Assembly: GCA_965247635.1 (NCBI GenBank)
Contig: CBDFHJ010000008.1
Location: 394,734 to 458,733, forward strand
Source: Dehalococcoidia bacterium
GTDB lineage: Bacteria; Chloroflexota; Dehalococcoidia; Lucifugimonadales; Australimonadaceae
Direction: 5' to 3'
Length of the DNA: 64,000 bases
Part shown: one piece after another, positions 20,196-39,728 of the stretch
Numbering within the stretch: the stretch's first letter is position 1
Layout: the number at the start of each line of letters is the position of its first letter
The notes under the pieces: model-generated
The model's database searches: none
The model's input: only the letters and a program-made list of their open reading frames with translations
Told to the model about the DNA's origin: nothing
Position numbers and translations under genes: made by a program

Positions 20196-20311
20196 GCGTT
20201 CAGCGCAAGGAGGTGATTGTTAGCAACCAGCAAAAGTGGGACACATTGGGAGCCGAGAGATCAGGGGCTGGATGGAGGTCTGGCGAGCTCCCTGAGGGCC
20301 CTGTTGTAGCG

Positions 20312-23347: not shown

Positions 23348-23624
23348 TGGTGAGTCAGTCCCGACCTGTCCCGACCGCTCGGGACCTGGCGGGACTAATC
23401 CGCTCGTCCCTCGACAAGCTCTCCGACTTTGTCGAGAGTCTCGATGAGCCCCGACTCGTCGGGACATCATCGGACAGGACGAGCGGATTTTCCCCGTTCG
23501 TGATGAGCCCTTCGACTTCGCTCAGGACAGGCCTGTCGAACCATGAACGGTCCGAAGGACTCCGGACTCCTTCGGAGGGCTCTGCAACGCTCCTCACTTT
23601 TATTGAGCGGATTAGCGACTCAGG
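23348..23624. repeat. Family 2 composite intergenic repeat (MITE/REP-like)
   Basis: Termini GGTGAGTCAGTCCCGACCTGTC... and ...ATTGAGCGGATTAGCGACTCAGG match 59059..59230. An internal module matches 53075..53125. Confidence 0.75.
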
Positions 23625-23771
23625 ATGCTGAGCGATGACGGCTGGAGTGGACGCCCCTCGAACTTTCTACGCTCTACTTGGCACCCAGGCTCAGGCGGTC
23701 CAGGCCATCCTAGCGTACCCGACGATAGTCTTCGCGGGCGGCAAGCCCCTCAACGTCAGCTGCCGAGAAGT

Positions 23772-26111
23772 CTAGCCGTCAGCACCGAAGACGAAGATCC
23801 CCAGTGTATAGGTGCCGGTGCGGCCGGAGCCTTGGACCGCGATGTAGAGCGTCCCAGACGTGGTGGCGGTATACGTCTGGCTAGCCCCCGAGCTCGGTTG
23901 TGGCTGCGCCAAGCCCGTGGAGCCGGTAGGCAGACTGATATAAGCGCTCCCTAACGTGCCCAGCGTGGCCGCGATGACGTAGGTGGTGCCTGCCTGGGTC
24001 TGGAACGAGAAGTAGTCGCGGTCGCCCTGGTACTCGATGCCCCCGTCCGTGGAGGACGGCGCCTCCACCGCGGTGGCGCTGGAGTTGGCGTTGCCGTGGT
24101 CGTCTTCCGGTATGGACAGCGATAGCTCATAGGTCCCGGTGTAGTTGCTGATCCCCTGCACTTGGACGTAGAGGGTCCCCGACGACGTGGCGGTATAGGC
24201 GAGGGGCGCCTGCCCTTTCCCGATGGTAGCCGAAGCCAGCTGCTGGCCGGAAGCGTTATGCACGTAGAGGTAGGAGAACCCCAACGTGCCAGGGGTGGCC
24301 TCGATGAGGTAGGCGGTGCCGGACACGGCCGAAAATGAGAGGTAGTCCCGGTCGCCGACATACTCAACGCTCCCATCCGTGGACGACGGCACGCCTACCG
24401 CGGTGGCGCTGGAGATAGAGTTGCCGTGGTCGTCCTCTGGTTCGGAAAGCGACAGCACGTAGGAGCCAGTATTGTTGCTGTAACTCCCCATCTGGACGTA
24501 GAGGGTCCCCGAAACGGTGGCGGTATAGGCGATAGGCTGCTGTCCCAGATTCCCCGAAGCCAGCTGCTGACCGGAGGCGTTATGCAAGTAGAAGTAGGAG
24601 AACCCCAAAGTGCCAGCCGTAGCCGTGATGGCGTAGGTGGTGCCAGCCTCGGCCGAGAACGAAAAGTAGTCATCGTCACCTTGGTAGTCGATACTCCCGT
24701 CCGTGGACGACGGCACCGCCACCGCGGTGGCGCCGGAGATGGAGTTGCCGTAGTCGTCTTGCGGTACCGAGAGCGCCAGCGTATAGGAGCCGGTCTCGTT
24801 GCTGTAGCTCTCCATCTGGACGTAGAGGGTCCCCGACGACGTGGGGGTATAGACGATGGGCTCCTGGCCCAGATTCCCCGAAGCCAATGACTGGCCGGAT
24901 GAGTTATACAGGTAGAAGTAGGAGAACCCCAACGTACCGGGCGTACCCGTGATGGCGTAGGTGGTGCCGGCCTCAGCCGGGAACGAGAAGTAGTCCCGGT
25001 CGCCTTGGTACTCGATGCTCCCTTCCGTGGAGGACGGCGCCGCTATCGCGGTGGCGCTGGAGATGGCGTTGCCGTAGTCGTCCTCCGGTACGGAGATCGA
25101 CAGCGTGTAGGGGCCGGTCTCGCCGCCGTACACCTGCACCAGAACGTAGAGGGGCCCCGAGGACGTGGCGGTGTAGCCGATACTGCCCTGCCCTGAATTC
25201 AAGTGCTGGCTTTGGGAGTTGTAGAGGTTGACATAAAAGCCCCCCGACGTACCTCCTGTAGTATCTATTGAGTAGGGGGTGCCAGCCTCGGCCTGGAACG
25301 CGAAGTAGTCCAGGTCGCCTGTGTTGCCGATGACGCCGGCGATAGCGCAGGGCACCTCCGCCTGAGTGGCCTCGGAGATCGAGTCGCCGTGGTCGTCAGC
25401 GTCGGTTGTAAGGCTGGACGAGGGCGTGGGGTCCTCCTTTAGCAAGGTCGCCTGTCCTATGAGGATTTCGAGCTCCGCTATGGCTTCGCTGAACTTACTG
25501 CTTAGCTCGGGAGTACTCTCTTCGGCTTCGCTGAGTATGGCTATCCCCGCCTGATGGTGCGCGATCGCTTCATCAAGCTGGGAGGTCCACTCGCTCACCA
25601 GGTCATCTGTAACCACAACGCAAGAGAAGTAAGCATTCAAGGCCTCACTTGCGATGGCACGCTGGGAAGAAGTGCCCTCCACGAGCTCCTTGAGGGACCG
25701 TGCTTCTTGGGTTTTGGCCTCGTAGAGCTCCGCCGACTTTTCATACACCGAACGGGTGTCAGCGGGCACCTGTTTGCTCAGCACGAGTATCTTTGCCTTC
25801 AGCTCCTGAGCGTCCTCGATGAACTCTTCTAGGCGTCCCGTTGCTGTTGCTACCAGGCCGGGACCGCGAACCGGGTCCCAGTCTGCCTGCCTAGACCGTC
25901 CTACCGCGGCGAAGGCCAGCGCGAACTTGATATCCGCGGAACTGCGGAGGTCACGGATTTCCACATCGAGCTCGCGTATCCCCGCAACCGCGGCGTAGTC
26001 CGTTTCCAGGACAGCCAGGGTGGTCAGGCCCGCTTGTGCCGCAGCGTAGTCGTCTTGCAAGGCGGTCAGGTCAGCTTGTAGGGCAGCGTAGTCGTCTTGC
26101 AGGGCCGTCAC
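23772..26111 (-). pseudogene. 3' portion (779 codons) of a PPC-repeat lipoprotein gene interrupted by IS256
   Basis: N-terminal LQDDYAAxQAxLT repeats, a helical region, then 5 repeats of ~108 aa (DDHGNSISSATAV...GDRDYFSF...GTLYVQ...TGSYxLSLS). The repeats match the bacterial pre-peptidase C-terminal (PPC) domain pattern. The apparent GTG start is part of the IS target duplication. Confidence 0.85.
23775..25400 (-). repeat. Five tandem ~320-bp coding repeats (PPC domains)
   Basis: Recurring strings such as CCGCGGTGGCGCTGGAG and GAGAACCCCAA(C/A)GT(G/A)CC at ~320-330-bp spacing. Confidence 0.8.
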
Positions 26112-27479
26112 GAGGTTACGTCAATAGGTGTGTAAACGACATCAGGCGGCGACCTTCTCAGCCGTTGATTCAATGGCGATTCCATCCGCATACTGTGCAC
26201 CGAGATAGACGTCTTCGATCAACTCAGGGGCCTTCAGACGCCTGAAGCGCTGTTCGGCGACCATCAACATTTTCCAGATCACCGCTATCGCCCGATCGAC
26301 CCTCTTGTAGCGCTTGGCGGCATCGGTCCGAAGCCTGAGGGCCGCGAAGGGTGATTCTACCGGGTTCGTCGTGCGAAGGTGCCCCCAGTGCTCCTTTGGG
26401 AAGTCATAGAAGGTGACCATGCGGTCCCAGTCCCGCTCCAAGGCCTCTGAGGCCGCCTCGTAGGAATGGTCGCCGCACCACCTGGTGAACACCGTCCTGA
26501 GCCGCTCAGCCTCTGTCCGAGTCGGCGCGTAGGGGATAGTACGCAGCATGAGCTTGGCCTGGTCCTGTTGTCGCTTTGGAAGCTTGGCGAGCACGTTTAC
26601 GATCTTGTGGTTCCAGTAGCGTTGCTCTGCCGCCTGCGGATAGACGTTGCGCAGAGCTCCCCAGATGCCCAGGTGTCCGTCCCCAACCACCAGCCTCGGG
26701 CACTCCAGCCCGCGGCGCCTCATGTCCCTGAGCACATCGGACCAGTTCTCTGTGGACTCCCTGTATCCGGGAACAGCGCTCACCACCACCTTGCTCCCGT
26801 CGCTCAGGGCCGCCACCACCACCAGTACTGCCGCCTTCTCCTTCTCAAGACCAGCCTTGACGTAGACTCCATCCACCCACATGTAGACCACTTCCAGGTC
26901 ATCTAGGGGCCGGCTGCGCCATTGGGCAAGCTCATCGTTCCACTTGGACTTCAACCGGGCCACCGTGCTCGCCGATACCGGTGCGTCCTCTCCCAGCAGC
27001 CCCCGCAAAGCCAGATCGAAGTCGCCTTCGGATAGACCGTGCAGGTACAGCTCGGGGATCAACTCAGCAACCTTCCTGGTCCTGTTGACGAACAGCGGCA
27101 GCAGCCGGCTCTCGAACTGCTCCTCGGTATCGCGGACTCGCGGCCGCCTCAGCTGTATCGTTCCCGAACTCAGCGTAAGCCTCCGGGCTCTGCCGTATCC
27201 GTTCCGATAGCCGGTATCGTTGTCCGAGTCGGATCTGAGCGCCGACTTCGCCCTTCCCAGAAACGCCGTCACCTCCTCCTCCAGCAACTCCTGGATCAGC
27301 CTCTGGACCTGGCTTCGCACCCAATCCTCCAACTGCTCCCACTCCGGCCTTGACTCCGACCTACTCTCAGTGCTTTCCTTCCTCATGGGCGGTCTATCTC
27401 CTCTCTTGGGCCTCGAGCCCGTGTTGTTCAGAGAGAGGGTACACCGCCTGACTGTTTACACACTTTTTGAAGATACCTC
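26112..27479 (-). mobile_element. IS256-family insertion sequence, copy A (1368 bp)
   Basis: Boundaries set by comparison with copy B. IRs are GAGGTATCTTCAAAAAGTGTGTAAAC and rc GAGGTTACGTCAATAGGTGTGTAAAC. Confidence 0.9.
26142..27386 (-). CDS. IS256-family (Mutator-type) transposase
   Basis: 414 aa, typical IS256 transposase layout. Differs from copy B at RD/GG, P/S and Y/C (QRYWNHK versus QRCWNHK). Confidence 0.9.
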   Translation of the reverse strand: MRKESTESRSESRPEWEQLEDWVRSQVQRLIQELLEEEVTAFLGRAKSALRSDSDNDTGYRNGYGRARRLTLSSGTIQLRRPRVRDTEEQFESRLLPLFVNRTRKVAELIPELYLHGLSEGDFDLALRGLLGEDAPVSASTVARLKSKWNDELAQWRSRPLDDLEVVYMWVDGVYVKAGLEKEKAAVLVVVAALSDGSKVVVSAVPGYRESTENWSDVLRDMRRRGLECPRLVVGDGHLGIWGALRNVYPQAAEQRYWNHKIVNVLAKLPKRQQDQAKLMLRTIPYAPTRTEAERLRTVFTRWCGDHSYEAASEALERDWDRMVTFYDFPKEHWGHLRTTNPVESPFAALRLRTDAAKRYKRVDRAIAVIWKMLMVAEQRFRRLKAPELIEDVYLGAQYADGIAIESTAEKVAA

Positions 27480-27480
27480 T

Positions 27481-27563
27481 GTCATTCTGAGTCCCGATGC
27501 AATCGAGACGAAGAATCTCTCGGAAGGCAAGGGTGAGGGATTCTTCGCTGCGCTCAGAATGAC
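27481..27563. repeat. Family 1 palindromic repeat (GTCATTCTGAG...CTCAGAATGAC)
   Basis: Outer IR GTCATTCTGAG/CTCAGAATGAC and inner IR GAAGAATCTCTC/GAGGGATTCTTC. It abuts the end of IS256 copy A. Confidence 0.8.
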
Positions 27564-28059
27564 ACAGGCAGTTTTCTCCCATGCTTCGTTCGGGGTTGCC
27601 GCTAGCCTGACAGGCGCCTGGCCTGCTTTCCCACCCGCCCCGACCCAGCCGCATCTCCCTCGGTAGGGCCTACGCGTGTCGAACGGAAATAGGCTATCTT
27701 CAGGAGCGTGTTACTCCCGTTCATCCTGCGCGCATCGAAGGACGAACGAAGCTAAGAGAGCAGGTGCGGCGTGAACCCAGGCGACCGCAGGCGGGGTGGA
27801 CGGAGGCGACGGCAGCCCGTCGTTAGGCGGCCCATGCCGTGGCTGGTCCTGGGGCTTCTGCTACTCGTGGCGCTGGTAATAGGGCTGGCCCGGGTGCTGC
27901 CATCTGGCTGAAGAGGCCTTCCTCGTATGCGCTCCTGAGCTTTTCACTGCCCGTCATTGCCATGAAAACAGGCGTATCAGACAACTTCCTCCCCCCTTAG
28001 CGGGGAAGGGATTTTCGTGGAGCCCCATTTTCATCCTCTCCGGTGCCCTGTTCAGAGCA

Positions 28060-28200
28060 TGGAAGATTCTGAAGGAGTCCGCCTAAGGCGGATGGCTGAA
28101 GGGTCTCGTTTGGGGTAGGCCGTGAAGAGTCTAGGACCAGGGGCAGGAAACGAGATTCCGAGCGGAGCGAGGAATGACAGTGCGTCGCTCGGAATGACCG
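28060..28200. repeat. Family 1-related repeat modules
   Basis: GAGTCCGCCTAAGGCGGATGG... and GATTCCGAGCG...CGCTCGGAATGAC resemble the modules at 63092..63184 and 45095..45245. Confidence 0.55.
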
Positions 28201-28236
28201 CGGATGAGGCTTGCAAGAGAGCGTTACAGAGGACCC

Positions 28237-28461
28237 CTATAGCTCGCCGCGGAGCCGTTTCAGGTCGGTCTCCAGGGCCTCCATCCGTTCCTCTATGGGC
28301 CAGCGGCTGAACGCGACATACATCACTACCACCGCGCCGCCGATGGGGATGGGCATGAGCAAGGCCAGGTACGGAGACCAGCCGATGCGAGTGTAGATGC
28401 GCCACCAGCTCACGATGATCATAGCGGCGATAGCCAGGCCCAGCAGGATGATGACCGGCAT
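28237..28461 (-). CDS. Small two-helix membrane protein
   Basis: 74 aa. AAGGAG lies 6 nt upstream of the ATG. Two hydrophobic helices and a charged C-terminal helix. Located directly downstream of the peptidase gene. Confidence 0.55.
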   Translation of the reverse strand: MPVIILLGLAIAAMIIVSWWRIYTRIGWSPYLALLMPIPIGGAVVVMYVAFSRWPIEERMEALETDLKRLRGEL

Positions 28462-28494
28462 GTGTCACTCCTTGTGGTTGGTGCGTGTCTGGGG

Positions 28495-29859
28495 CTAGCG
28501 AGGGTGGCGGCGCCCCAGCTCCTCCAGTAGCTCCGCCGTGTGCAAGACCCCCAGCCGAAAGTAGTCGCGGCGGATATTCTCGTTGGGTGCGTGGATCCGG
28601 TTGCCCGGATAGTCGATGCCGCAGGAGGCCACCGGAACGCCCAGGATGTGCTGAGTGGGGTACTGGGGGCCGGTGCCCGCCATGTTGGGCTGCAGGTACG
28701 GCTCGCCGCCGTACACCGTACGCGCCGACTCGGCTACGGCGCCCACGAAGGGGTCGTTCAGCGGCGTGCGTGCGGGGTGCTCCGCGCTGAGCACGCTCAC
28801 CTTGACGTCGCTGAACCCGTGCTCGTTCAGGTGCGCTCGAAGGCTGGCGAGTACCTCCTGCGGGTCCTGGTTGGGCACCAGCCGGAAGTCCACCTTCACC
28901 TTGGCTGTGGCGGGCAAGATCGTCTTCACGCCCTGGCCCGTGTACCCAGCCACCATTCCCGCCACGTTGCAGGTGGGGTCCATGATGAGCCGGCGGCGAG
29001 ACTCGAACCCGGTGGCCTCGCCCAGGAACAGTTCCACGCCGAACACCTGCCGGTAACGGGCCGTTTCGTCCGGCAACGACCGAAGGGCTTCGAGTTCCTC
29101 CTCCAGGGCGGGGCGGACTCGCTCGTAAAACCCCCGAAGCAGGACCTGCTCTTTGGCGTCCTTCAGCGTCTGCAGGGCCCAGATGAGCCGCCACGCGGGG
29201 TTGGGCACTACCGGCGCGTAGGAGGAGTGAGCGTCCGTCGCCGCGGTCTCGCACCACAGTTCCACGTAGAGCATGCCCTTCACCCCCAGCGTCAGCAGGG
29301 GCCGGCCGTCCCAGTTCACGCCGCCGCCCTCCCAGATGCACGCGTCGGACTTGAGCAGGCCCTGGTGCTGGTCCACGAAGTCGTGGAAGCCGGGGCTGCC
29401 GATCTCCTCCGCCCCCTCCAGGCAGAACTTGACTCGCACGGGGAGTCGGCCCCTTGTGCTGAGGATGGCCTTGATGGCAGCCAGGCGGGCGATGAACGGG
29501 CCTTTGTCGTCCGAGATGCCCCGGCCGAAGAGGTAGTCGTTCCGCTCGGTGGGCTCGAAGGGTGGAGAGTCCCACAGGTCGAGCGGGTCGGGCGGCTGCA
29601 CGTCGTAGTGGTTGTAGAAGAGCAGCGTGTAGTCGGAGGCGCCCTCGAGCTCGCCGTAGACCACTGGATAGTCGGAGTCGGCGGTGGGCATGATCTCGGC
29701 CTTGAGTCCGACCTTGGTCAGCTCCTCGGCCACCATCTCCGAGCAATCGCGCACGCCCAGCCGCTGGGCACTGACGCTGGGCTGCGATGCCAGCCGCTTC
29801 AGGTCTGCTATCGTCGTCTCGAGGTTCTTATCGACGTGCTCTTGAGTTGCGTTGTCCAT
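28495..29859 (-). CDS. M20-family metallopeptidase (dipeptidase/ArgE-DapE-CPG2-like)
   Basis: 454 aa. FYNHYDVQP, GRGISDDKGP, CLEGAEEIGS. Confidence 0.85.
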   Translation of the reverse strand: MDNATQEHVDKNLETTIADLKRLASQPSVSAQRLGVRDCSEMVAEELTKVGLKAEIMPTADSDYPVVYGELEGASDYTLLFYNHYDVQPPDPLDLWDSPPFEPTERNDYLFGRGISDDKGPFIARLAAIKAILSTRGRLPVRVKFCLEGAEEIGSPGFHDFVDQHQGLLKSDACIWEGGGVNWDGRPLLTLGVKGMLYVELWCETAATDAHSSYAPVVPNPAWRLIWALQTLKDAKEQVLLRGFYERVRPALEEELEALRSLPDETARYRQVFGVELFLGEATGFESRRRLIMDPTCNVAGMVAGYTGQGVKTILPATAKVKVDFRLVPNQDPQEVLASLRAHLNEHGFSDVKVSVLSAEHPARTPLNDPFVGAVAESARTVYGGEPYLQPNMAGTGPQYPTQHILGVPVASCGIDYPGNRIHAPNENIRRDYFRLGVLHTAELLEELGRRHPR

Positions 29860-29945
29860 AAAGACGCCTCCTTACATGGGGCACCTGGGGCGTGGGCATC
29901 TGAGTTTGCCCAGCGGGCCCTCACTTTCCCTGCCGCCGTGCGTTG

Positions 29946-31367
29946 TTAACCGCCGGCGCCTCCGGTGCCCTCAACAATGCCAGGCTCCGTCATCCGCGCC
30001 GGGTCCAGCAGCATGTCCAGCTGCGCGTCCGTCAGCCCCGCTTTCTCCTTAGCCAACTCCCGGATGGTCTTGCCCGTGGCGGCGGCCTCCTTGGCGATGG
30101 CCGTCGCGGCGTCGTAGCCGATGGCCGGGGTCAGCCCCGTGGCGAGCATCAGGCCCTGCGTCACCATCTCGGGGCCGGTGGCGGTAGCCTTCAGCCCCCG
30201 CAGGCACTGGGCCTCGAAGTTGGCGGTGGCCGAGGCCAGCAAGGTAATGGCCTGGTGCAGGTTGTACCCAGCCACGGGCCAATAGGTGTTCAGCTCCAGG
30301 TAGCCCCCCTGGGCCGCCGCGCTTACCGACGCGTCGTTGCCGACCACCTGGCACACTACCTGCAGCAACGACTCGGCGATCACCGGGTTGATCTTGCCCG
30401 GCATGATGGAGGAGCCGGGCTGCACCGCGGGCAGCTCCAGCTCGCCCAGGCCGGCCCGCGGGCCCGACGAGAGCCAGCGGATGTCGTTGGCGATTTTCTG
30501 CAACGAGACGGCCGCGCTCCGTACCGCACCGCTGGCGGCGAGAAGAGTGTCCTGCGCGCCCTGGGCCTGGAAGTGGTAGGGCGTCTCTTTGACGGGCAGG
30601 CCCATCTCCTGACTGAGCAGGCCGCAGACCCGCCCGGCGAACTCGGGGTGCGCGTTCACGCCGGTACCAACGGCCGTGCCTCCAAGGGCTACTTCGCCGA
30701 GCGCCTCCACGTGGGCCTGGAGCCGTTCCCGGGCCTGCAATAGCTGGTCGGCGTAACCCTGGAACTCCTGGCCCAGCCGGATAGGCGTGGCGTCTTGGAG
30801 GTGGGTGCGGCCGGTCTTGATCACGCCCCACAGTGTCTTGGCCTGGGCTTGCAGCGTCTCTCGTGTCCGCTCCAGCGCCGGCAGAAGCAGCGATTGGAGC
30901 GCCTCGGCGGCGGCTAGGTGGGTAGCCGTGGGGATCACATCGTTGGACGACTGGCCCATGTTCACGTGGTCGTTGGGGTGGACCTTTTTTTCGGACCCCT
31001 GGCCTGAGAGCTCGCTTGCCCTTCGAGCGATAACCTCGTTGGCGTTTGTGTTGGTGGACGTCCCAGAGCCCGTCTGAAATAGGTCCACCGGGAATTGGCC
31101 GTCCAGCTTCCCCTCGGCGACCTCGCCCGCGGCTGCGACGATGGCCTCTCCGATGCCGGGGTCCAGTAGCCCCAGCGCAACGTTGGTCCTGGCCGCCGCC
31201 CGCTTGATGCGGCCGAGAATGTGGATAAAGTCGGGGGGATATCGAAGGTCGCTGATGGGAAAGCTGAGCACCGCGCGCTGGGTGGAGGCCCCGTAGTAGG
31301 CGTCGGCGGGCACCTGCATTTCCCCCATGGTATCGCGTTCGGTACGGGTGGCCTTGTGCTGCGTCAT
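29946..31367 (-). CDS. Class II fumarase / aspartate ammonia-lyase family enzyme (aspartase-like)
   Basis: Signature GSSIMPGKINPV and TGSGTSTNTNANEVI. Start set at MTQHKATRTERDTMGEMQVP (ATG 31367..31365). The ORF track extends to 31523. Confidence 0.85.
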   Translation of the reverse strand: MTQHKATRTERDTMGEMQVPADAYYGASTQRAVLSFPISDLRYPPDFIHILGRIKRAAARTNVALGLLDPGIGEAIVAAAGEVAEGKLDGQFPVDLFQTGSGTSTNTNANEVIARRASELSGQGSEKKVHPNDHVNMGQSSNDVIPTATHLAAAEALQSLLLPALERTRETLQAQAKTLWGVIKTGRTHLQDATPIRLGQEFQGYADQLLQARERLQAHVEALGEVALGGTAVGTGVNAHPEFAGRVCGLLSQEMGLPVKETPYHFQAQGAQDTLLAASGAVRSAAVSLQKIANDIRWLSSGPRAGLGELELPAVQPGSSIMPGKINPVIAESLLQVVCQVVGNDASVSAAAQGGYLELNTYWPVAGYNLHQAITLLASATANFEAQCLRGLKATATGPEMVTQGLMLATGLTPAIGYDAATAIAKEAAATGKTIRELAKEKAGLTDAQLDMLLDPARMTEPGIVEGTGGAGG

Positions 31368-31549
31368 CGGCGCCTCGCTGCGGGTGAGGTTGTCCGGCTG
31401 GAACCGTAATGTTACCCGTCGCTGGCTGGTTATGCCAGGGTAGCGGGCTGGCCTCCTTCGGGTAGCTTCGCGTGCCAGGCGATGAGAGTGCGCACGCCTA
31501 TCGGGTTCAGCCAGCGGCAGCACTATGGTAAGATGCCGCCTGCGTTTGT

Positions 31550-32572
31550 ATGCGGCGCGCTCCGGAGCGCCGAGGAGAAGTGGAGCGGCAAATGGACCGA
31601 ACGGCTTGGCGCCAACTGCTCATCGCCGTGGGAATCTCCGCGGTGGTCATCGTAGTGTTCCTGGTGGTCGCCTACTACGCGTACCGCGCCGACAGCGTCT
31701 TGGGCCACGGGCCGTTGTCCAGCAGCGCCTCGGGCGGCGGCGCCTACGCGATTAGCCTCTTGGTGGCGCTCCTGGCCATGCTGAGCGCCGGCATCGCCTA
31801 CGTCGGCATCACGCAGACACGCGAGTCTACGGGCCGCTTCTTCTGGGTACCCTACCTCCTCGTCGAGGGCGCCTTGCTCCTGCTCCTTCTGGTCCCACTG
31901 CGCCGGTTTGGCGTCGACCCGTGGGGAGGGTTGCCTACCTTCATGGTCAGCATACCGGCACAGCTCATGGCCGGAGTTACCCTTGGCTTCCTGTGGATCC
32001 CCACCCTGAGCGTGCGGCTCATCCCTCCGGCGTGGCGGGGCCAGGCGGCGACCGGCGCTGGCGGAGCAAGTGCCCCTCGGCCGTCGACGCGTGCCGCCAT
32101 TCGAGGCCTTCCAGGACGGTTCACTCCCAGCGCGTGGCGGGTGCTATCCCATATGCAGGAAGCGGCGAGGCGGTTCGAGCACGGGTTCATGGGGACGGAG
32201 CACCTGCTGCTGGGCATCCTGCAGGAGCGGCAGGCGCTAGCGGCCAGGACGATGGTTAACGTAGGGGTTGACCTGGACGAGGCTCGGTCGCAGGTGGAGG
32301 GGGTCATCGGACGCCGGGGGTCGCTGTACACGGGCTCTGGCGGTCTGACCCGCCGCTGCCGACGGGTGATCGAGCACTCGGCGCGGCTGGCCCGGGAGAC
32401 CGGCCGGCGCACCGTGGGAACAGGCCACCTGCTCCAGGGCCTCATGGCCGACCCGGAAGACGCCGCCGGGCAGATCCTGGAGAGCATGGGCGTGACCGGC
32501 CAACGGCTGGCGCAGGAGCTGCGGCACCTGGGCTACGAGACCGAGGAGACGGACCAGCCCGCCGACTCCTAA
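31550..32572 (+). CDS. Membrane protein with C-terminal double Clp_N (Clp R) repeat domain
   Basis: About 4 hydrophobic helices, then ...FMGTEHLLLGILQE... and ...TVGTGHLLQGLMADPEDAAGQIL..., which are two Clp N-terminal repeats. The start could also be ATG 31592. Confidence 0.7.
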   Translation: MRRAPERRGEVERQMDRTAWRQLLIAVGISAVVIVVFLVVAYYAYRADSVLGHGPLSSSASGGGAYAISLLVALLAMLSAGIAYVGITQTRESTGRFFWVPYLLVEGALLLLLLVPLRRFGVDPWGGLPTFMVSIPAQLMAGVTLGFLWIPTLSVRLIPPAWRGQAATGAGGASAPRPSTRAAIRGLPGRFTPSAWRVLSHMQEAARRFEHGFMGTEHLLLGILQERQALAARTMVNVGVDLDEARSQVEGVIGRRGSLYTGSGGLTRRCRRVIEHSARLARETGRRTVGTGHLLQGLMADPEDAAGQILESMGVTGQRLAQELRHLGYETEETDQPADS

Positions 32573-32719
32573 GCAGGACACCGCCCCGAGCTCGGTCTTT
32601 TCAGCCTCGCGATTACCTTTCTTCTCGGTACGAGCTGCACGCTTTCCGCATCCGCTTGGCTTCCCATTCTCAGCGGCTATCCTTTACGCTATACCCAGGC
32701 TGCGTAGCGGCAGCGCCGT

Positions 32720-32795
32720 GGGCCCGTAGCTCAGGGGTTAGAGCGGCCGGCTCATAACCGGTTGGTCCCAGGTTCAAATCCTGGCGGGCCCACCA
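32720..32795 (+). tRNA. tRNA-Met (anticodon CAT); a lysidine-modified tRNA-Ile2 cannot be excluded
   Basis: Cloverleaf read by eye: acceptor GGGCCCG/CGGGCCC, D-arm GCTC..GAGC, anticodon stem GCCGG/CCGGT with loop CTCATAA, T-arm CCAGG-TTCAAAT-CCTGG, and encoded CCA. Confidence 0.9.
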
Positions 32796-32807
32796 CTGCG
32801 AGCATTT

Positions 32808-33923
32808 GTGAAAGGGATGGGAGCAACACCTAGGGTATCCAGCGTAGTAAGGCGCAGCCTGTTTGTGTTAAGTGGCGCTGCTCTCTTCGCTTTAGTCGCC
32901 GCTTGCGGCAGCCCCGAACCGACTGCAACGCCGACACCAACGTCAACCCCCACGCCCACGGCTACAGCCACACCCCAGCAGACATCTACCCCAACGCCTA
33001 CCGCGTCACCGACTGCTTCCCCGACACCGACACTCACTCCAACACCTACACTCACGCCGACGCCGACCAACACACCGACGGTCACGCCTTCCCCGACTGC
33101 GGCCACTAGCCCTGCAATCCGGTGGGACACACCCACCGTTTCTTTGGAGGCTGACGGTCTTGAAATCGTCATCACACCGGGCGGCGTTGCCGGCAAGTCT
33201 TTCTTAGCCGAAATGGTGGAGATTGAGCTCAGCTCCGACCCCGGGGGCGCGGAGTACACGACGCTCGAAGTGACACGGCGGGAACACGGAGTTGAGATGA
33301 GGCGCACCATCTACTTTCAAGCCGATGAAAGCCGGTGGTGGTCCGACGAAATTCGGACATATAACGGCGAGGTCGATGGCGATTGGATTGAATACTTTGG
33401 CCGGTTTTTTGACCAACCCCTCGGCTCGACCTTTGAAGGAGATTTCGAGCTAGTCTACATCGCGGGGGGCGACTCGGCGTCTTTAATGCTGACCGCGTTG
33501 CGTCTCAAAGCGTTCACGCAGTACGAAGAGGGCGCTGAGCTCGAAGACGCACTTAGAGCTAAGCTATCGAGCATTGGCAACACGCTGGGGCGCTTAGCGC
33601 CGTACGGTAACCTGGATCTCAGCCTCGTTGGCAGTATCCTCTACGGGGACCTCTCCCCCCGGGCTCAGCAGTACTGCTCGATGCAGGCGCTCGTGCAGGC
33701 CCTTGAAGACTCGCCTCTGGGTACCATCTCTTCCTCCACGGAAGACTTTGACCGATTGAGGGCAGCCATCGAGGGTCTATCGTCCGTCCAAGTCGAGGTC
33801 ACGGACGGCCGTGGAAGCGTTGTGGACGACCTAGCGCCTGGGCTGGAACTCTTGGAGCAGCCTTTCCTACTCATTGAGAACCGCTGGCGGCTCGAACCCG
33901 AGCTCCCTGGATGCGGCCCATAA
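32808..33923 (+). CDS. Putative lipoprotein with a long Pro/Thr-rich linker
   Basis: Signal peptide ...[14 protein letters not shown], ~70-aa PT linker, then a globular domain with no recognised family. The start (GTG 32808 or ATG 32817) is uncertain. Confidence 0.6.
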
Positions 33924-34021
33924 AGCCAACGCCCGCAACTCCCGCCCCGGCCACAGCACCGTCGAGCTAGCGCGGAATGCCGATGCGGTAGCATGCCAAC
34001 CTGGTCGGATCAGGGGGCCAT

Positions 34022-34525
34022 TTACTGAGGCGTCCCGTCCTTCCCGGCCTGACCAATGAAGTTTTCGATCTCGTCTTCCCCGTCGACGTGGTTCTTGAGT
34101 ATTTCAAGGACTTCGAAGTACGTGATCACGTCCTTGTCCTTTATCGCTTCGAGGAAGTCACTGTAGAAGCGAATCGCCATACGTTCCTGTTCGAGCGCAT
34201 ACCCCAAGAATGGCCCCATGTTGTTGGGGTCTGGCAATGTATAACTTTCAATGGGCGACACGTCCACAAAGCGGGTGGGATCGGCGGGGATAGCCCCTCC
34301 CAAGCGGGCAATGCGGTTTGCGAGCCTTGCTGCATTTCTCTCAGCGTCTTCAATCTTTTCAGTCAGGGGCGGCTTCAGGAAAATCTCCGCCTGCCCTCCC
34401 AACCGATTGATGGCCGCCTTGGCGAATTCGGCAGTCAGTTCTTCGTATGCGTAAAAGCTTTCAAGCTTACCGCTCACTTCTTTGGGAGGTATCCCTTTAA
34501 TCAAAGAGTTTCCAACAGTGCCCAT
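34022..34525 (-). CDS. Ferritin-like superfamily protein
   Basis: 167 aa. Helical, with EDAERNAARLANRI and ALEQERMAIRFYSDFL patterns typical of ferritin-like four-helix bundles. The family assignment is tentative. Confidence 0.5.
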   Translation of the reverse strand: MGTVGNSLIKGIPPKEVSGKLESFYAYEELTAEFAKAAINRLGGQAEIFLKPPLTEKIEDAERNAARLANRIARLGGAIPADPTRFVDVSPIESYTLPDPNNMGPFLGYALEQERMAIRFYSDFLEAIKDKDVITYFEVLEILKNHVDGEDEIENFIGQAGKDGTPQ

Positions 34526-34842
34526 GAAAGGTCCTCCTAGAGTATGGCTTAGAGATTAGTTTGCGGGTCGTTTTCTGTATACCATCCCTTAAGCCCAGCA
34601 ACAAGAGCCGTTCCATATCGCACGGAGATCAAGTGGTTCAGCGTATCAAGGAACTAACGGCAGCAAACAAATGCGTGGGGTATTCTGTAGGCCGGGATCG
34701 GACACTAGCACCCGATCAAAGTCCTTGCAACTGTCAACGGACTCCATTTTTGGAACGTTAAGGGACTGATAAGGCCCTCGTAAGGTCTCGCTAAGGGACC
34801 TCGAATACAGTGGGCCCAGCACCTGACGGAGGAGGCCCGTTG

Positions 34843-35006
34843 ATGAAAAACCGAAACCTGCTGACCGCGATAGCGTCGTTGCTCCTGGTATCCATCGCGC
34901 TCGCTGGCTGCGCCGGGGGCGTTTCGCAGGATGAACACGACGCGTTACAGGCCGAGCTAACGGACCTGCAAGGCGACTACGCTGCGTCGCAAGCTGGCGT
35001 GACGGC
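34843..35006 (+). pseudogene. 5' portion of the PPC-repeat lipoprotein gene, separated from its 3' part by IS256 insertion plus inversion
   Basis: GGAGGAGG RBS, then MKNRNLLTAIASLLLVSIALAGCAGGVSQDEHDALQAELTDLQGDYAASQAGVTA. It runs into the IS256 copy B end at 35007. Confidence 0.8.
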
Positions 35007-36374
35007 GAGGTATCTTCAAAAAGTGTGTAACCAGTCAGGCGGTGTACCCTCTCTCTGAACAACACGGGCTCGAGGCCCAAGAGAGGAGATAGACCGCCCA
35101 TGAGGAAGGAAAGCACTGAGAGTAGGTCGGAGTCAAGGCCGGAGTGGGAGCAGTTGGAGGATTGGGTGCGAAGCCAGGTCCAGAGGCTGATCCAGGAGTT
35201 GCTGGAGGAGGAGGTGACGGCGTTTCTGGGAAGGGCGAAGTCGGCGCTCAGATCCGACTCGGACAACGATACCGGCTATCGGAACGGATACGGCAGAGCC
35301 CGGAGGCTTACGCTGAGTTCGGGAACGATACAGCTGAGGCGGCCGCGAGTCCGCGATACCGAGGAGCAGTTCGAGAGCCGGCTGCTGCCGCTGTTCGTCA
35401 ACAGGACCAGGAAGGTTGCTGAGTTGATCCCCGAGCTGTACCTGCACGGTCTATCCGAAGGCGACTTCGATCTGGCTTTGCGGGGGCTGCTGGGAGAGGA
35501 CGCACCGGTATCGGCGAGCACGGTGGCCCGGTTGAAGTCCAAGTGGAACGATGAGCTTGCCCAATGGCGCAGCCGGCCCCTAGATGACCTGGAAGTGGTC
35601 TACATGTGGGTGGATGGAGTCTACGTCAAGGCTGGTCTTGAGAAGGAGAAGGCGGCAGTACTGGTGGTGGTGGCGGCCCTGAGCGACGGGAGCAAGGTGG
35701 TGGTGAGCGCTGTTCCCGGATACAGGGAGTCCACAGAGAACTGGTCCGATGTGCTCGGGGGCATGAGGCGCCGCGGGCTGGAGTGCTCGAGGCTGGTGGT
35801 TGGGGACGGACACCTGGGCATCTGGGGAGCTCTGCGCAACGTCTATCCGCAGGCGGCAGAGCAACGCTGCTGGAACCACAAGATCGTAAACGTGCTCGCC
35901 AAGCTTCCAAAGCGACAACAGGACCAGGCCAAGCTCATGCTGCGTACTATCCCCTACGCGCCGACTCGGACAGAGGCTGAGCGGCTCAGGACGGTGTTCA
36001 CCAGGTGGTGCGGCGACCATTCCTACGAGGCGGCCTCAGAGGCCTTGGAGCGGGACTGGGACCGCATGGTCACCTTCTATGACTTCCCAAAGGAGCACTG
36101 GGGGCACCTTCGCACGACGAACCCGGTAGAATCACCCTTCGCGGCCCTCAGGCTTCGGACCGATGCCGCCAAGCGCTACAAGAGGGTCGATCGGGCGATA
36201 GCGGTGATCTGGAAAATGTTGATGGTCGCCGAACAGCGCTTCAGGCGTCTGAAGGCCCCTGAGTTGATCGAAGACGTCTACCTCGGTGCACAGTATGCGG
36301 ATGGAATCGCCATTGAATCAACGGCTGAGAAGGTCGCTGCCTGATGTCGTTTACACACCTATTGACGTAACCTC
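35007..36374 (+). mobile_element. IS256-family insertion sequence, copy B (1368 bp)
   Basis: Reverse complement of copy A, with a few substitutions. Confidence 0.9.
35100..36344 (+). CDS. IS256-family (Mutator-type) transposase
   Basis: 414 aa. Retains QRCWNHK. Confidence 0.9.
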   Translation: MRKESTESRSESRPEWEQLEDWVRSQVQRLIQELLEEEVTAFLGRAKSALRSDSDNDTGYRNGYGRARRLTLSSGTIQLRRPRVRDTEEQFESRLLPLFVNRTRKVAELIPELYLHGLSEGDFDLALRGLLGEDAPVSASTVARLKSKWNDELAQWRSRPLDDLEVVYMWVDGVYVKAGLEKEKAAVLVVVAALSDGSKVVVSAVPGYRESTENWSDVLGGMRRRGLECSRLVVGDGHLGIWGALRNVYPQAAEQRCWNHKIVNVLAKLPKRQQDQAKLMLRTIPYAPTRTEAERLRTVFTRWCGDHSYEAASEALERDWDRMVTFYDFPKEHWGHLRTTNPVESPFAALRLRTDAAKRYKRVDRAIAVIWKMLMVAEQRFRRLKAPELIEDVYLGAQYADGIAIESTAEKVAA

Positions 36375-36536
36375 GAGTGACAGCGATAGAACTCCAGGGC
36401 CAGTCGCTGCGACTACCCTACCCCATGTAGTATCATGGAGTTGCAATGCCCCGGCATTTTGTCTGAATCTGCCCAGTTCACCTCTTGACATACCAGGAAG
36501 CGGCGCGCAGAATACCCCCCACCTTCTGAAGCTAGC

Positions 36537-36581
36537 CCACCATATTGTGGTCGGCGCACCTTAAAATACTATATATTGGCA
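36537..36581 (+). promoter_or_regulatory. Putative tandem NrdR boxes upstream of nrdR-nrdJ
   Basis: CCACCATATTGTGG (36537..36550) and ATACTATATATTGG (36567..36580), centres ~30 bp apart. The second fits the core CwAtATaTwG of the NrdR box consensus. A TTGACA-N17-CAGAAT promoter candidate is at 36485..36513. Confidence 0.4.
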
Positions 36582-36721
36582 TCTCACCCGGTGAAACTCG
36601 CCGGGTCTGGTGCCGCGATAGCCGGTGGCTTGCGGTGTGTCCTTCCCTACCGCAGGCTACCGCTCGATCCCATCACGCCAGGCCCACAGCGCCGGGTAGC
36701 TCAACGGGAGGCAGAGAGTCC

Positions 36722-37318
36722 ATGCGCTGTCCCTACTGCGGCGGCACCGACTCCCGGGTAACCGACTCCCGGGACGCAGGCGAGGGTATCCGCCGCCGCC
36801 GGGAGTGCCTGAGTTGCGGGGTCCGGTTCACCACCTACGAGCGCATCCAGAGCACAGCGCTGGTGGTGGCCAAGCGCGACGGCCGCCGGGAGGAGTTCGA
36901 CCGCGACAAGCTGAGTCGAAGCATCCGGCTAGCGTGCGTGAAACGCCCGCTCCCCACCGGTACGCTGGAGAAGGCGGTGGACGAGATCGAGGCCAGCCTG
37001 CAACGGCTGGGCCGAGCGGAGGTGCCGACGGCGATCATCGGCGAGCTGACCATCGCCAAGCTGCGAGAGCTGGACCGGGTAGCCTACATCCGCTACGCCA
37101 GCGTCTACCGCGACTTCGACGACGTAGCGGAGTTCGAACGCGAGATCGCAGCGCTCCAGGAGGCCATGCAGGAGGCGCCGAGAGCGTCGACGGAGGGCCA
37201 GCTACCCTTGATTCCTGACCAGCCGACGGTGCCGCCAAGGCCCCGAGCGCGCCGGGGACGAAGGCCCCGCATCAGCGCGCCAAGGGAGCAGCGAGGGGCG
37301 GCAGAACCAGAAGGGTGA
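36722..37318 (+). CDS. nrdR: Transcriptional repressor NrdR (with C-terminal extension)
   Basis: MRCPYCGGTDSRVTDSRDAGEGIRRRRECLSCGVRFTTYE zinc ribbon plus ATP-cone. Start at internal ATG 36722. About 45 extra Pro/Arg-rich residues at the C-terminus. Confidence 0.9.
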   Translation: MRCPYCGGTDSRVTDSRDAGEGIRRRRECLSCGVRFTTYERIQSTALVVAKRDGRREEFDRDKLSRSIRLACVKRPLPTGTLEKAVDEIEASLQRLGRAEVPTAIIGELTIAKLRELDRVAYIRYASVYRDFDDVAEFEREIAALQEAMQEAPRASTEGQLPLIPDQPTVPPRPRARRGRRPRISAPREQRGAAEPEG

Positions 37319-37451
37319 GACAAGCGGTTGTTGACGGAAACGCCGATAGAAAGTAAATGGACACTACTTGAAGCAAAGGACTCGTAGCGCTACCTGAGAC
37401 TAGAAGTTTGCATGCACCCGCGCGGTGCGACTTTACGCAGGAGACCCACCC

Positions 37452-39728
37452 ATGGTCACGACACCACAGCTGACTGAAAACGCGATCACCATCCTCCAGA
37501 CGCGGTACCTGCTGAAGGGCGAGACGCCCCAGGACCTGTTCTGGCGGGTGGCGCGCGCCGTCGCCGAGCCGGAGGGCTCGGCGACGGCGGCGTGGGCCCA
37601 GCGCTTCTACGACCTGATGGCCGAGTGCGTGTTCATGCCCAACTCCCCTACCCTGTTCAACGCCGGCACCGGCGCTGGCACCCTGTCCGCGTGCTTCGTG
37701 ATCCCGGTCGAGGACACCATGGACTCCATCATGCACGCGGCCACCGTCTCCGCCATGATCCAGAAGTACGGCGGGGGCCTCGGTTACTCCTTCGGCCGGC
37801 TGCGCAGCAGGGGCTCCGGCATATCCACCACCCAGGGCAAGGCGTGCGGCGCGGTGGCCGTGCTCAAGATGCTCTCCAGCCTCTCGGACATGATCACCCA
37901 GGGTGGCAAGCGTCACGGCGCCAACATGGGCATCCTGCCGGTGTCCCACCCGGAGGTCCACGACTTCATCCACATGAAGGACGACTACGTGACCGCCCAG
38001 AACTTCAACGTCTCGGTGGCGGTGACCGACGACTTCATGCGGGCGGTGGAGCGCGACGAGGAGTGGCAGCTGGTGGACCCCGCCTCGCACGAGGTGATGG
38101 AGACCGTCTCCGCGCGGGGGCTCTGGAAAGAGATCGTCGACAGCGCCTGGCGCACTGGCGACCCGGGCCTCTACTTCATCGACGAGGCCAACCGGAACAA
38201 TCCGACGCCGCACCTGGGGATGCTGGAAAGCACCAACCCGTGCGGCGAGGTGCCCCTGCTGGCATACGAGGCGTGCAACCTGGGCTCCATCCACCTGGCC
38301 AAGTTCGTCATACCCGCCAGCGAGTCGCAGGCCGCGAGCTTCGGCTTCGACGCGCTGCGGGAGGTGGTGCGCACCTGCGCCCGCTTCCTGGACAACGTAG
38401 TGACGGTGAACACCTTCCCGGCCCAAGAGGTGTACGACGCGGTCCAGGCCACCCGTAAGACGGGGCTCGGGGTGATGGGGTGGCACGACGCGCTAATCCT
38501 CATGGGCATTCCGTACGAGGACAGCGAAGCGCTGAAGCTGGCCGACCAGGTGATGGGCGCCATCAACGACACGGCCCGAGAGGTGTCCGTGGAGCTGGCC
38601 AAGGAGCGCGGCGCTTACCCAGGGTTCAAGGCTTCCATCAAGGGCAGCGAGCCCATCCGCAACGCCACCCGAACGTGCATCGCGCCCACGGGCAGCATCT
38701 CGGCCATCGCCGGCGCCTCGTCGGGCATCGAGCCGGTCTTCGCCCTGGCCTTCGTCAAGAACGTGCTGGACGGCAAGCAGCTCAGGGAGGTCAACCCCCA
38801 CCTGGAGGACGTGGCCAAACAGCGGGGCTTCTGGAGCGAGGAGCTGATGGACGAGGTGGTCCGGACCGGCTCCGTCCAGGGCATCGACACGGTGCCGGCC
38901 GACGTGAAGCGGCTCTTCGCCACGGCCATGGAGGTCCCCTACGAGGCCCACGTGCGGATGCAGTCGGTCTTCCAGTCCCACACCGACCTGGCCGTGTCGA
39001 AGACCATCAACATGGTCAGCGACGCCACCCGGGAGGACGTGGAGAACGCCTACCTGATGGCGTACGGGACCAACTGCACGGGCATCACCATCTACCGGGA
39101 CGGCAGCAAGCCCACCCAGGTGCTGGAGGTGCCGGGCAGCAAGGAACGGGAGCAGCAGGCGGAGCCCACGGTCCGGGTGCCCCGGGAGCGGCCCAAGTCC
39201 ATCCGGGGCGTGACCGAGCGGGTCCGGACCGCCCACGGCAACGCCTTCGTGACCATCAACTTCGACGACGAGGGGCATCCCTTCGAGCTATTCACCCAGA
39301 TCGGCAAGGCGGGAAGCACCGATGCTGCGTACCTGGAGGCCATCTCACGCCTGGTCTCTCAAGCCCTGCGCTCCGGCATACCGGCGGTGGAGGTGGTCGA
39401 CCAGCTACGGGGTATCACCAGCGAACCGGCGTGGGACGAAGGCAAGCTGATTCTATCGGCGCCCGACGCGGTAGCCCAGGTGATGATTCGACACGCCCTG
39501 GGCGGCAGCGAGACAGAGGAGCGGTTGAAAGCGGCCTACGCTGTTCAGCCGGGGCTGACCCCGGCGGGCCAGGAGCAGTCCAAGTCCGCCAACGGCCACA
39601 ACGGCAACGGCGTGCAGGTGCCACAGCTTCTCATGGGCCTACAGCGGTGCCCGGACTGCAACGGGCCGGTGCTGATGCAGGAGGGGTGCATCGCGTGCCC
39701 GTCCTGCGGATGGAACAAGTGCGGGTAG
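37452..39728 (+). CDS. nrdJ: Adenosylcobalamin-dependent (class II) ribonucleotide reductase
   Basis: 758 aa from ATG 37452, with AGGAG upstream. STNPCGE active-site loop and C-terminal CPDC...CPSCG zinc-ribbon tail. Confidence 0.9.
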   Translation: MVTTPQLTENAITILQTRYLLKGETPQDLFWRVARAVAEPEGSATAAWAQRFYDLMAECVFMPNSPTLFNAGTGAGTLSACFVIPVEDTMDSIMHAATVSAMIQKYGGGLGYSFGRLRSRGSGISTTQGKACGAVAVLKMLSSLSDMITQGGKRHGANMGILPVSHPEVHDFIHMKDDYVTAQNFNVSVAVTDDFMRAVERDEEWQLVDPASHEVMETVSARGLWKEIVDSAWRTGDPGLYFIDEANRNNPTPHLGMLESTNPCGEVPLLAYEACNLGSIHLAKFVIPASESQAASFGFDALREVVRTCARFLDNVVTVNTFPAQEVYDAVQATRKTGLGVMGWHDALILMGIPYEDSEALKLADQVMGAINDTAREVSVELAKERGAYPGFKASIKGSEPIRNATRTCIAPTGSISAIAGASSGIEPVFALAFVKNVLDGKQLREVNPHLEDVAKQRGFWSEELMDEVVRTGSVQGIDTVPADVKRLFATAMEVPYEAHVRMQSVFQSHTDLAVSKTINMVSDATREDVENAYLMAYGTNCTGITIYRDGSKPTQVLEVPGSKEREQQAEPTVRVPRERPKSIRGVTERVRTAHGNAFVTINFDDEGHPFELFTQIGKAGSTDAAYLEAISRLVSQALRSGIPAVEVVDQLRGITSEPAWDEGKLILSAPDAVAQVMIRHALGGSETEERLKAAYAVQPGLTPAGQEQSKSANGHNGNGVQVPQLLMGLQRCPDCNGPVLMQEGCIACPSCGWNKCG

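What the first reader, a model, noticed from the sequence alone, without database searches (positions are those of the whole stretch)
23772..36382. 7.5-kb inversion between two inverted IS256 copies that split a large lipoprotein gene; 8-bp target duplications sit in inverted configuration
IS-A (26112..27479, transposase on -) and IS-B (35007..36374, transposase on +) are both 1368 bp and near-identical. The low-coordinate flank of IS-A ends GCCGTCAC (26104..26111). The low-coordinate flank of IS-B ends GTGACGGC (34999..35006), its exact reverse complement. The other two flanks are TGTCATTC (27480..27487) and GAGTGACA (36375..36382), which match 7/8 as reverse complements. This is the pattern expected after two ordinary 8-bp-duplication insertions followed by IS-IS recombination. 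A single intramolecular transposition would give the same pattern. Either way, 27480..35006 is inverted. Re-inverting it joins 34843..35006 (MKNRNLLTAIASLLLVSIALAGC...LQGDYAASQAGVTA) in frame to 26111..23772 (VTALQDDYAALQADLTALQDDYAAAQAGL...). The join continues the same 11-residue repeat. The inverted block carries the M20 peptidase, aspartase-like lyase, Clp_N membrane protein, tRNA-Met, a lipoprotein and a ferritin-like gene.
Basis: partly seen in the sequence, partly recalled or inferred. Interest (0 to 1): 0.7.

Follow-up and report, generated by a model that had tools for sequence, protein, structure and literature searches.

The report
IS256-flanked 7.5-kb inversion splitting a lipoprotein gene
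Two copies of a very abundant IS256-family element inserted into an uncultured bacterium's chromosome, one of them inside a large lipoprotein gene, and recombination between them then flipped the 7.5 kb in between; this is a clean but ordinary case of a well-known rearrangement.

Summary
Two 1368-bp IS256-family copies (26112-27479 on -, 35007-36374 on +) differ at 7 positions. Their 8-bp flanks are swapped: GAATGACA|IS-A|GTGACGGC and GTGACGGC|IS-B|GAGTGACA. Undoing the inversion and removing the IS plus one duplication gives an in-frame 831-aa lipoprotein gene.

Three independent lines show the re-inverted, IS-free order is ancestral:
- A 1510-bp contig from a run of the same sample joins 26103 to 35006, with a single GCCGTCAC.
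- A 555-bp contig from another run of that sample joins 36383 to 27480, with a single TGTCATTC.
- A 92-93% identical relative (L002) has the re-inverted order and no IS at either site.

A 97.5% identical IS copy elsewhere has an ordinary direct 8-bp duplication.

[quoted passage not shown] This is what has been described for IS256 in S. aureus.

The IS insertion broke the gene; the inversion only separated the halves.

One caveat remains. All four IS junctions are identical in either orientation, so k=31 contigs cannot prove the assembled orientation. Long reads spanning an IS are needed. Interest is low.

The parts
23772..26111 (-). 3' fragment of the split lipoprotein gene. It is a 779-codon ORF whose apparent GTG start is just the target duplication. 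It carries five ~108-aa PPC-like repeats and has no promoter, start codon or signal peptide of its own.
   Evidence: ORF list. Pfam PF04151 PPC, E=1.2e-17. 324-330-nt direct repeats D1-D3.
26104..26111 (.). Target-site duplication 1, copy a (GCCGTCAC, which is rc GTGACGGC).
   Evidence: The empty-site contig carries a single copy.
26112..27479 (-). IS-A, an IS256-family element of 1368 bp. IRR lies at 26112 and IRL at 27479. The transposase ORF is 26142-27386 (414 aa).
   Evidence: The 414-aa transposase family is Pfam PF00872, scanned on the IS-B copy, which differs at 4 residues. The element ends are confirmed by copy L084.
27480..27487 (.). Target-site duplication 2, copy a (TGTCATTC, which is rc GAATGACA). 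This is the ancestral version.
   Evidence: The X4 empty-site contig carries exactly this version once.
27481..27565 (.). An ~85-nt palindromic repeat element (TGTCATTCTGAG...CTCAGAATGACA). IS copy 2 inserted at its foot. Its arms are high-copy in the sample and it is absent from relative L002.
   Evidence: DNA fold -24.7 kcal/mol, z=-4.5. Depth 80-1200x against ~4x for the flanks. Absent in L002.
27480..35006 (.). The inverted unique segment, 7527 bp. It holds M20 peptidase (28495-29859 -), class-II lyase/aspartase-like (29946-31367 -), Clp_N membrane protein (31550-32572 +), tRNA-Met (32720-32795 +), a lipoprotein (32808-33923 +), ferritin-like (34022-34525 -) and the 5' end of the split lipoprotein gene.
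   Evidence: Its orientation relative to both flanks is reversed in L002 and in both empty-site contigs.
34843..35006 (+). 5' fragment of the split lipoprotein gene: start codon, signal peptide, lipobox LAGC and the first 14-aa repeat unit. It now reads on into IS-B and stops at 35058, leaving a 71-aa remnant.
34999..35006 (.). Target-site duplication 1, copy b (GTGACGGC).
35007..36374 (+). IS-B, an IS256-family element of 1368 bp. IRL lies at 35007 and IRR at 36374. The transposase ORF is 35100-36344 (414 aa, 4 aa different from IS-A's).
   Evidence: Pfam PF00872, E=1.5e-56.
36375..36382 (.). Target-site duplication 2, copy b (GAGTGACA). The G at 36377 is a derived change from A.
   Evidence: The empty-site contig reads GAATGACA.

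Best explanation
The ancestral locus read: lipoprotein gene (-), ferritin-like (+), lipoprotein 2 (-), tRNA-Met (-), Clp_N (-), aspartase-like lyase (+), M20 peptidase (+), hairpin repeat, nrdR (+), class II RNR (+).

Two copies of a high-copy 1368-bp IS256-family element then inserted independently, each duplicating 8 bp. One went into GAATGACA at the foot of the hairpin repeat upstream of nrdR. The other went into GTGACGGC at codons 53-55 of the lipoprotein gene, in the opposite orientation. These two steps are shown.

Homologous (RecA-type) recombination between the two inverted copies then flipped the 7527 bp between them. Each IS now carries one flank from each original site. This step is inferred.

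The lipoprotein gene had already been knocked out by the insertion. The inversion makes that loss permanent: its 5' 164 nt now sit 9 kb from the 3' 2.3 kb, on the opposite strand. Excision of either IS can no longer restore the gene.
For: - Swapped 8-bp flanks, 8/8 and 7/8.
- In-frame 831-aa reconstruction with the 14-aa repeat register kept. It is collinear, with no gap at the join, with the relative's sequence.
- Empty site 1: a 1510-bp X2 contig equals 25162-26103 + rc(34439-35006), at depth 5.2.
- Empty site 2: a 555-bp X4 contig equals rc(36383-36406) + 27480-28009, at depth 6.2.
- Relative L002 (92-93% nt identity) has the re-inverted order and no IS at either site.
- An independent copy of the same IS (L084, 97.5% identity) has a normal direct 8-bp duplication, ACACCACC, and the same element ends.
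- The two copies differ at 7/1368 positions, while the empty and occupied alleles differ at only 2/1510 (Poisson P~0.003). This argues that the copies came from different donor copies.
- The mutated TSD2 copy suggests the nrdR-side insertion is the older one.
- Precedent: IS256 copies in inverted orientation with heterogeneous flanking repeats bound a 1-Mb inversion in S. aureus OC8, attributed to homologous recombination (PMC5065196).
- The window's protein sits on a 559-kb contig. That contig contains IS copies whose k-mer depth in runs X1-X4 is 1e3-1e4 times that of their flanks. Only long reads could achieve this, and they would span a 1.37-kb repeat.
Against: - The four IS-flank junctions are identical in the inverted and non-inverted two-IS arrangements.
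- The available data (Logan k=31 contigs) break inside the IS.
- No read was seen to span a whole IS with unique sequence on both sides, so the assembled orientation rests on the unseen assembly.
- The sequencing technology of the source assembly is inferred, not known.
- The argument from 7 differences between the copies assumes similar substitution rates and no gene conversion from the many other IS copies.
Confidence: 0.72

Rival explanations
1. Assembly artefact. The genome really has two simple IS insertions, each with a direct 8-bp duplication, in the ancestral gene order. The assembler crossed from one IS copy to the other and so flipped the segment in silico.
For: - Both arrangements give the same four junction sequences, so the contig evidence is equally compatible with either.
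- The sample is a strain mixture with IS-free alleles.
- The IS is 1e3-1e4 times deeper than the host flanks. That is a hard case for any assembler.
Against: - A 559-kb contig running through three IS elements, at ~16x summed depth in runs X1-X4, implies long reads.
- Relatives from ENA carry contig names such as ctg245216_6x_l. From my own recollection, not tested here, that is the naming style of HiFi metagenome assemblers.
- Reads of several kb span a 1.37-kb repeat, and assemblers normally break rather than guess at an unresolved repeat.
- The IRL-proximal variant (IS position 25) is linked to its own flank in independent contigs.
Confidence: 0.15
2. One-step intramolecular (replicative) transposition. 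A resident IS at one site attacked the second site on the same molecule in inverted orientation. This created the second copy and the inversion together.
For: Such inversions are documented for IS26/IS6-family elements (titles: PMC10501869, PMC7986276).
Against: - From my own knowledge of the literature, IS256 transposes by copy-out/paste-in through a circular intermediate. IS256 circles are also mentioned in PMC5065196. That route gives simple insertions, not inversions.
- The two copies should be identical at birth, yet they differ at 7 positions, 4 of them amino-acid changes. The event is young enough that IS-free alleles differing by ~0.13% still coexist.
Confidence: 0.1
3. The IS-block-IS unit is a Tn4001-like composite transposon that inserted here as a whole, bringing the six genes and the tRNA with it.
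For: The architecture fits: two inverted IS256-family copies flanking 7.5 kb of cargo, as in Tn4001.
Against: - The outer flanks, GCCGTCAC and GAGTGACA, are not a direct repeat.
- Each outer flank pairs with an inner flank instead.
- The block genes lie at the same locus, next to the same neighbours, in the IS-free relative L002 and in the empty-site contigs.
Confidence: 0.01

Closest known systems
IS256-bounded chromosomal inversions in Staphylococcus aureus (for example the 1.04-Mb MbIN of strain OC8; PMC5065196)
   Same: - IS256-family copies in inverted orientation sit at both breakpoints.
- Each copy is flanked by non-matching 8-bp repeats that pair across the two copies.
- An IS-free comparator carries single copies of the targets.
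- The inferred mechanism is homologous recombination between the copies.
   Different: - The segment is 7.5 kb instead of 1 Mb.
- The host is an uncultured, probably Dehalococcoidia-like bacterium from a metagenome.
- One breakpoint lies inside a gene, so a coding sequence is split.
- The IS-free alleles coexist in the same sample.
- The orientation has not been validated by PCR or long reads here.
IS256 (ISfinder IS256 family; Pfam Transposase_mut PF00872)
   Same: - A single 414-aa Mutator-type transposase.
- A 1368-bp element.
- Imperfect ~26-bp terminal inverted repeats (20/26 matching).
- 8-bp target duplications.
   Different: It is a different element from staphylococcal IS256 (1324 bp). 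In public metagenome assemblies the nearest transposase clusters to the query are 97-99% identical. I did not check whether ISfinder has named it.
Tn4001-type composite transposons (IS256 copies in inverted orientation around cargo)
   Same: The present architecture is formally the same: inverted IS256-family copies bracketing a 7.5-kb segment.
   Different: It arose in place by two insertions and an inversion, not by insertion of a composite. The cargo is native chromosomal genes. No evidence of mobility was found.
IS26/IS6-family intramolecular replicative inversions
   Same: The end product has the same flank pattern.
   Different: The transposition chemistry is different (cointegrate-forming). 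The two copies would be expected to be identical at birth, which is not the case here.

Membership tests
IS256 family insertion sequence | Mutator-type DDE transposase (Pfam PF00872 Transposase_mut) as the single ORF | tested here: met
   PF00872, E=1.5e-56, covering residues 14-362 of 414. There is one long ORF per copy.
IS256 family insertion sequence | Length about 1.2-1.5 kb with imperfect terminal inverted repeats of about 20-40 bp | tested here: met
   1368 bp. The terminal 26 nt match at 20/26. The same ends are seen in independent copies L083 and L084.
IS256 family insertion sequence | 8-9-bp direct target-site duplication on insertion | tested here: met
   L084 has the direct repeat ACACCACC. 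Both sites in this window have empty-site contigs with one copy of the 8 bp that is found twice in the window.
IS256 family insertion sequence | Copy-out/paste-in transposition through a circular intermediate with abutted ends | not testable with these tools
   No IRL-IRR circle junction was looked for. Only k=31 contigs were available.
Inversion by homologous recombination between inverted IS copies | Two near-identical copies in inverted orientation at the two breakpoints | tested here: met
   (99.5% identity, inverted).
Inversion by homologous recombination between inverted IS copies | Target duplications exchanged between the copies (each IS flanked by one half of each pair) | tested here: met
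   GAATGACA|IS-A|GTGACGGC and GTGACGGC|IS-B|GAGTGACA.
Inversion by homologous recombination between inverted IS copies | Collinear, IS-free ancestral arrangement in relatives or in the population | tested here: met
   L002. Empty-site contigs in X2 and X4.
Inversion by homologous recombination between inverted IS copies | Physical proof of the inverted orientation (reads or PCR products spanning a whole IS into unique DNA on both sides) | not testable with these tools
   Runs X1-X4 are held only as k=31 contigs that end within ~30 nt of the IS ends.
Bacterial lipoprotein (reconstructed gene) | N-terminal signal peptide ending in a lipobox L-[AS]-[GA]-C | tested here: met
   By inspection: MKNRNLLTAIASLLLVSIALAGC, with LAGC at residues 20-23. 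No dedicated predictor was run.

The most novel reading that the evidence does not exclude
The IS-block-IS unit may be a live structure rather than a frozen scar. The 7.5-kb segment could keep flipping by recombination between the 99.5% identical arms, so that both orientations coexist in the population. It could also act as a newly formed Tn4001-like composite transposon, able to move native genes (aspartase-like lyase, M20 peptidase, tRNA-Met and others) among members of a community in which this IS is extraordinarily abundant.
Probability: 0.12. Interest if true: 0.4.

Novelty: new member of a known kind. Interest (0 to 1): 0.22.

Why it matters
The mechanism is textbook: IS insertions followed by IS-IS recombination. 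The case adds no new principle.

Its value is as an unusually complete natural example. Both empty sites, both occupied sites and a syntenic relative can all be recovered from public data. It therefore documents recent, strain-level genome rearrangement and gene loss in an uncultured bacterium.

It also warns annotators of two things. The 779-aa 'gene' at 23772-26111 and the small ORF at 34843-35058 are two halves of one pseudogene. The local gene order also differs from the species' ancestral order.

Tried and rejected
- **GC and AT skew** across the window. The profile is too noisy to show a local strand-bias reversal, so it was not used.
- **Exact 32-nt pattern from the lipoprotein 5' flank**, searched in genome contigs and metagenome contigs. 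No hit, so no independent assembly of the same strain was found there.
- **Exact-product look-ups** of four window proteins: ferritin-like, the 779-aa fragment, the IS-B transposase and M20. None is on record, so no second assembly could be used to check orientation.
- **GTDB species representatives, queried with the aspartase-like protein**. The best hit is a Dehalococcoidia MAG at 64% aa identity. None of the four GTDB loci tested shares any neighbouring gene with the window, so they are useless for synteny.
- **The full-length 827-aa homologue P0003** (48% identity, L001). It lies in an unrelated context and gives no synteny information. It only shows that the reconstructed length and architecture are natural.
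- **Composite-transposon insertion.** Rejected: the outer flanks are not direct repeats, and the cargo is native at this locus in L002.
- **Phasing the 7 IS-internal differences to decide orientation.** Impossible with k=31 contigs. The nearest differences to the ends are 25 and 36 nt in, and the interior is shared with thousands of other copies.
- **A search for newer runs kept as raw reads**. Only the four 2025 runs of sample S1 hold the sequence at a high share of its words; one search also listed six runs of other samples holding at most a tenth.
Full report
**1. The observation**

IS-A is 26112-27479 and IS-B is 35007-36374. Both are 1368 bp, they are reverse complements of each other, and they differ at 7 positions. 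The window holds no further copy.

Each copy carries one 414-aa ORF. The IS-B ORF matches Pfam Transposase_mut (PF00872, E=1.5e-56), which is the IS256-family transposase; the IS-A ORF differs from it at 4 residues. The terminal 26 nt match at 20/26.

Read in the orientation of each IS, the flanks are GAATGACA|IS-A|GTGACGGC and GTGACGGC|IS-B|GAGTGACA. One pair is therefore 8/8 and the other 7/8, each split between the two copies. This is far beyond chance, about 1e-5 and 4e-4 respectively.

**2. The reconstruction**

Joining 34843..35006 to the reverse complement of 23775..26103 removes the IS and one duplication. The result is an uninterrupted 831-codon ORF. Its features are:
- a signal peptide and lipobox (LAGC);
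- a short array of 14-residue repeats, LTDLQGDYAASQAG / VTALQDDYAALQAD / LTALQDDYAAAQAG;
- a helical region;
- five ~108-aa repeats that hit the PPC domain.

The join falls exactly between two units and keeps their register. A full-length homologue of 827 aa exists elsewhere (P0003, 48% identity, 99% coverage), so the reconstructed length is natural.

**3. Independent evidence that the re-inverted, IS-free order is ancestral**

(a) Four public runs of one sample (X1-X4, held as k=31 contigs) contain this organism at a depth of about 3-8x. In X2, a 1510-bp contig is exactly window 25162-26103 followed by the reverse complement of 34439-35006. It carries a single GCCGTCAC and only two substitutions. 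The strings were checked. This is the intact lipoprotein gene.

(b) In X4, a 555-bp contig is exactly the reverse complement of 36383-36406 followed by 27480-28009, with a single TGTCATTC. This is the empty second site. It shows that GAATGACA is the original target and that the G at 36377 is a later change.

(c) L002 is a 610-kb ENA contig holding the closest homologue (P0002). It is 92-93% identical in DNA over the whole neighbourhood. It maps as rc(41008-36417), then 27733-27957, 28188-28540, 29933-33976 and 34749-35001 in forward order, then rc(26103-24372). That is the predicted ancestral order, with no IS at either site and no gap at the lipoprotein join.

(d) An independent copy of the same IS (L084, 97.5% identity) has the same ends and an ordinary direct 8-bp duplication, ACACCACC. 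The element does behave as assumed.

**4. Mechanism**

Two insertions are shown. The flip is inferred.

- The two copies differ at 7/1368 positions, 4 of them amino-acid changes. The IS-free and IS-occupied alleles of the host differ by only 2/1510 (Poisson P~0.003). The copies are therefore unlikely to be mother and daughter of a very recent single event.
- From my own knowledge, IS256 elements move by copy-out/paste-in through circles, which gives simple insertions. IS256 circles are also mentioned in PMC5065196.
- The same pattern in S. aureus OC8, inverted IS256 copies with heterogeneous flanking repeats bounding a 1-Mb inversion, was explained the same way (PMC5065196).

A Tn4001-like composite insertion is excluded. 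The outer flanks are not a direct repeat, and the cargo is native to this locus in L002.

**5. Consequences**

The IS insertion interrupted the lipoprotein gene. The inversion only moved the halves apart.
- The 5' 164 nt now run into IS-B and stop at 35058, leaving a 71-aa remnant that still has the signal peptide and lipobox.
- The 3' 2.3 kb has no start codon of its own. The 'GTG' at 26111 is simply part of the duplication.
- The junction sequences are the same in both orientations, so the local effects of the IS on nrdR or the M20 gene do not change with the flip.
- What does change is the orientation of six genes and a tRNA. In addition, excision of an IS can no longer restore the gene.

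**6. The remaining weakness**

Recombination inside the IS leaves all four junctions unchanged. The contigs that support each junction (X1: 23559-26135, 27454-28627, 34439-35035, 36352-37111) therefore cannot tell an inverted genome from a non-inverted genome with two simple insertions. No read spanning a whole IS was available.

I rate a mis-join as unlikely, at about 0.15. The window's protein sits on a 559-kb contig, and the window holds three IS elements. The k-mer depth of the IS256 copies in runs X1-X4 is 1e3-1e4 times that of their flanks. Only long reads can achieve this, and such reads span 1.37 kb. This remains an inference.

**7. Comparison and novelty**

The element passes every IS256-family feature that could be tested: transposase family, length, inverted repeats and 8-bp duplication. 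The rearrangement meets every testable feature of an IS-IS recombinational inversion except physical proof of orientation.

It is a new instance of a well-known kind. It is notable only because both empty sites and a syntenic relative could be recovered from public data. Interest is low.

Noticed in passing
window 26112-27479 and 35007-36374; runs X1-X4: In the runs that hold this genome at ~3-8x, k-mers of this IS are at ~7,000-35,000x in the interior and ~60,000x at the IRR end, which is 1e3-1e4 times the host depth. The transposase has thousands of near-identical relatives in ENA metagenome assemblies; one 97%-identical cluster alone has 3234 members, and many distinct copies lie on single 2.6-3.6-Mb contigs. 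This looks like a massive IS expansion shared across a community.
   Followed up: partly
L002 9564-11503 and 11556-12751: In the 92%-identical relative, the orthologous lipoprotein gene also looks dead. It changes reading frame several times, although at 6x coverage some of these shifts may be assembly indels. It ends at the position matching window ~24372, next to a different, fragmented IS256-family element. This would be independent loss of the same gene.
   Followed up: partly
window 28541-29932 and 33977-34748 vs L002: The M20 peptidase gene and the ferritin-like gene are cleanly absent from relative L002. Window 28540 and 29933 abut there with a few bases of overlap, and 773 bp are replaced by 66 bp. 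These are gene-sized indels between close relatives inside the inverted block.
   Followed up: no
window 27481-27565 and 23370-23560: Palindromic repeat elements occur at elevated depth, tens to ~1200x against ~4x for their flanks. One IS copy sits exactly at the foot of the 27481-27565 hairpin. Contigs from the sample show other IS copies abutting similar elements elsewhere (joints 23533>26112 and 27479>27540). This may indicate a target preference, or it may be chance given the copy numbers.
   Followed up: no
window 20215-21776: An IS3-family element lies 2 kb from the lipoprotein 3' end: orfA 21244-21651 (HTH_Tnp_1) and orfB 20312-21247 (rve). L002 has two tandem ~77-82% identical copies near its truncated lipoprotein gene. 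This flank is an IS-rich spot in both genomes.
   Followed up: no
L083 2908-4275: A 98.8%-identical IS copy on an 830-kb contig has no target duplication (…GGAGACAGG|IS|CTACCGAC…) and lies next to an IS66-family transposase gene. It may be another product of IS-IS recombination.
   Followed up: no
window 36378-37660 (run X4): A second strain with 15 substitutions in 1283 bp (~1.2%) over nrdR and its upstream region is present in X4. The X4 contig that carries the IS-free second site ends just short of the first of these substitutions, so the two may belong to one strain. The runs of this one sample differ in which allele their contigs show.
   Followed up: partly
runs X2 (joints 27479>35005 and 27479>35006): Low-depth (~2x) contigs join two IRL ends head to head with 0-2 nt between them. 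This could be IS copies inserted end to end somewhere in the community, or a fold-back sequencing artefact.
   Followed up: no
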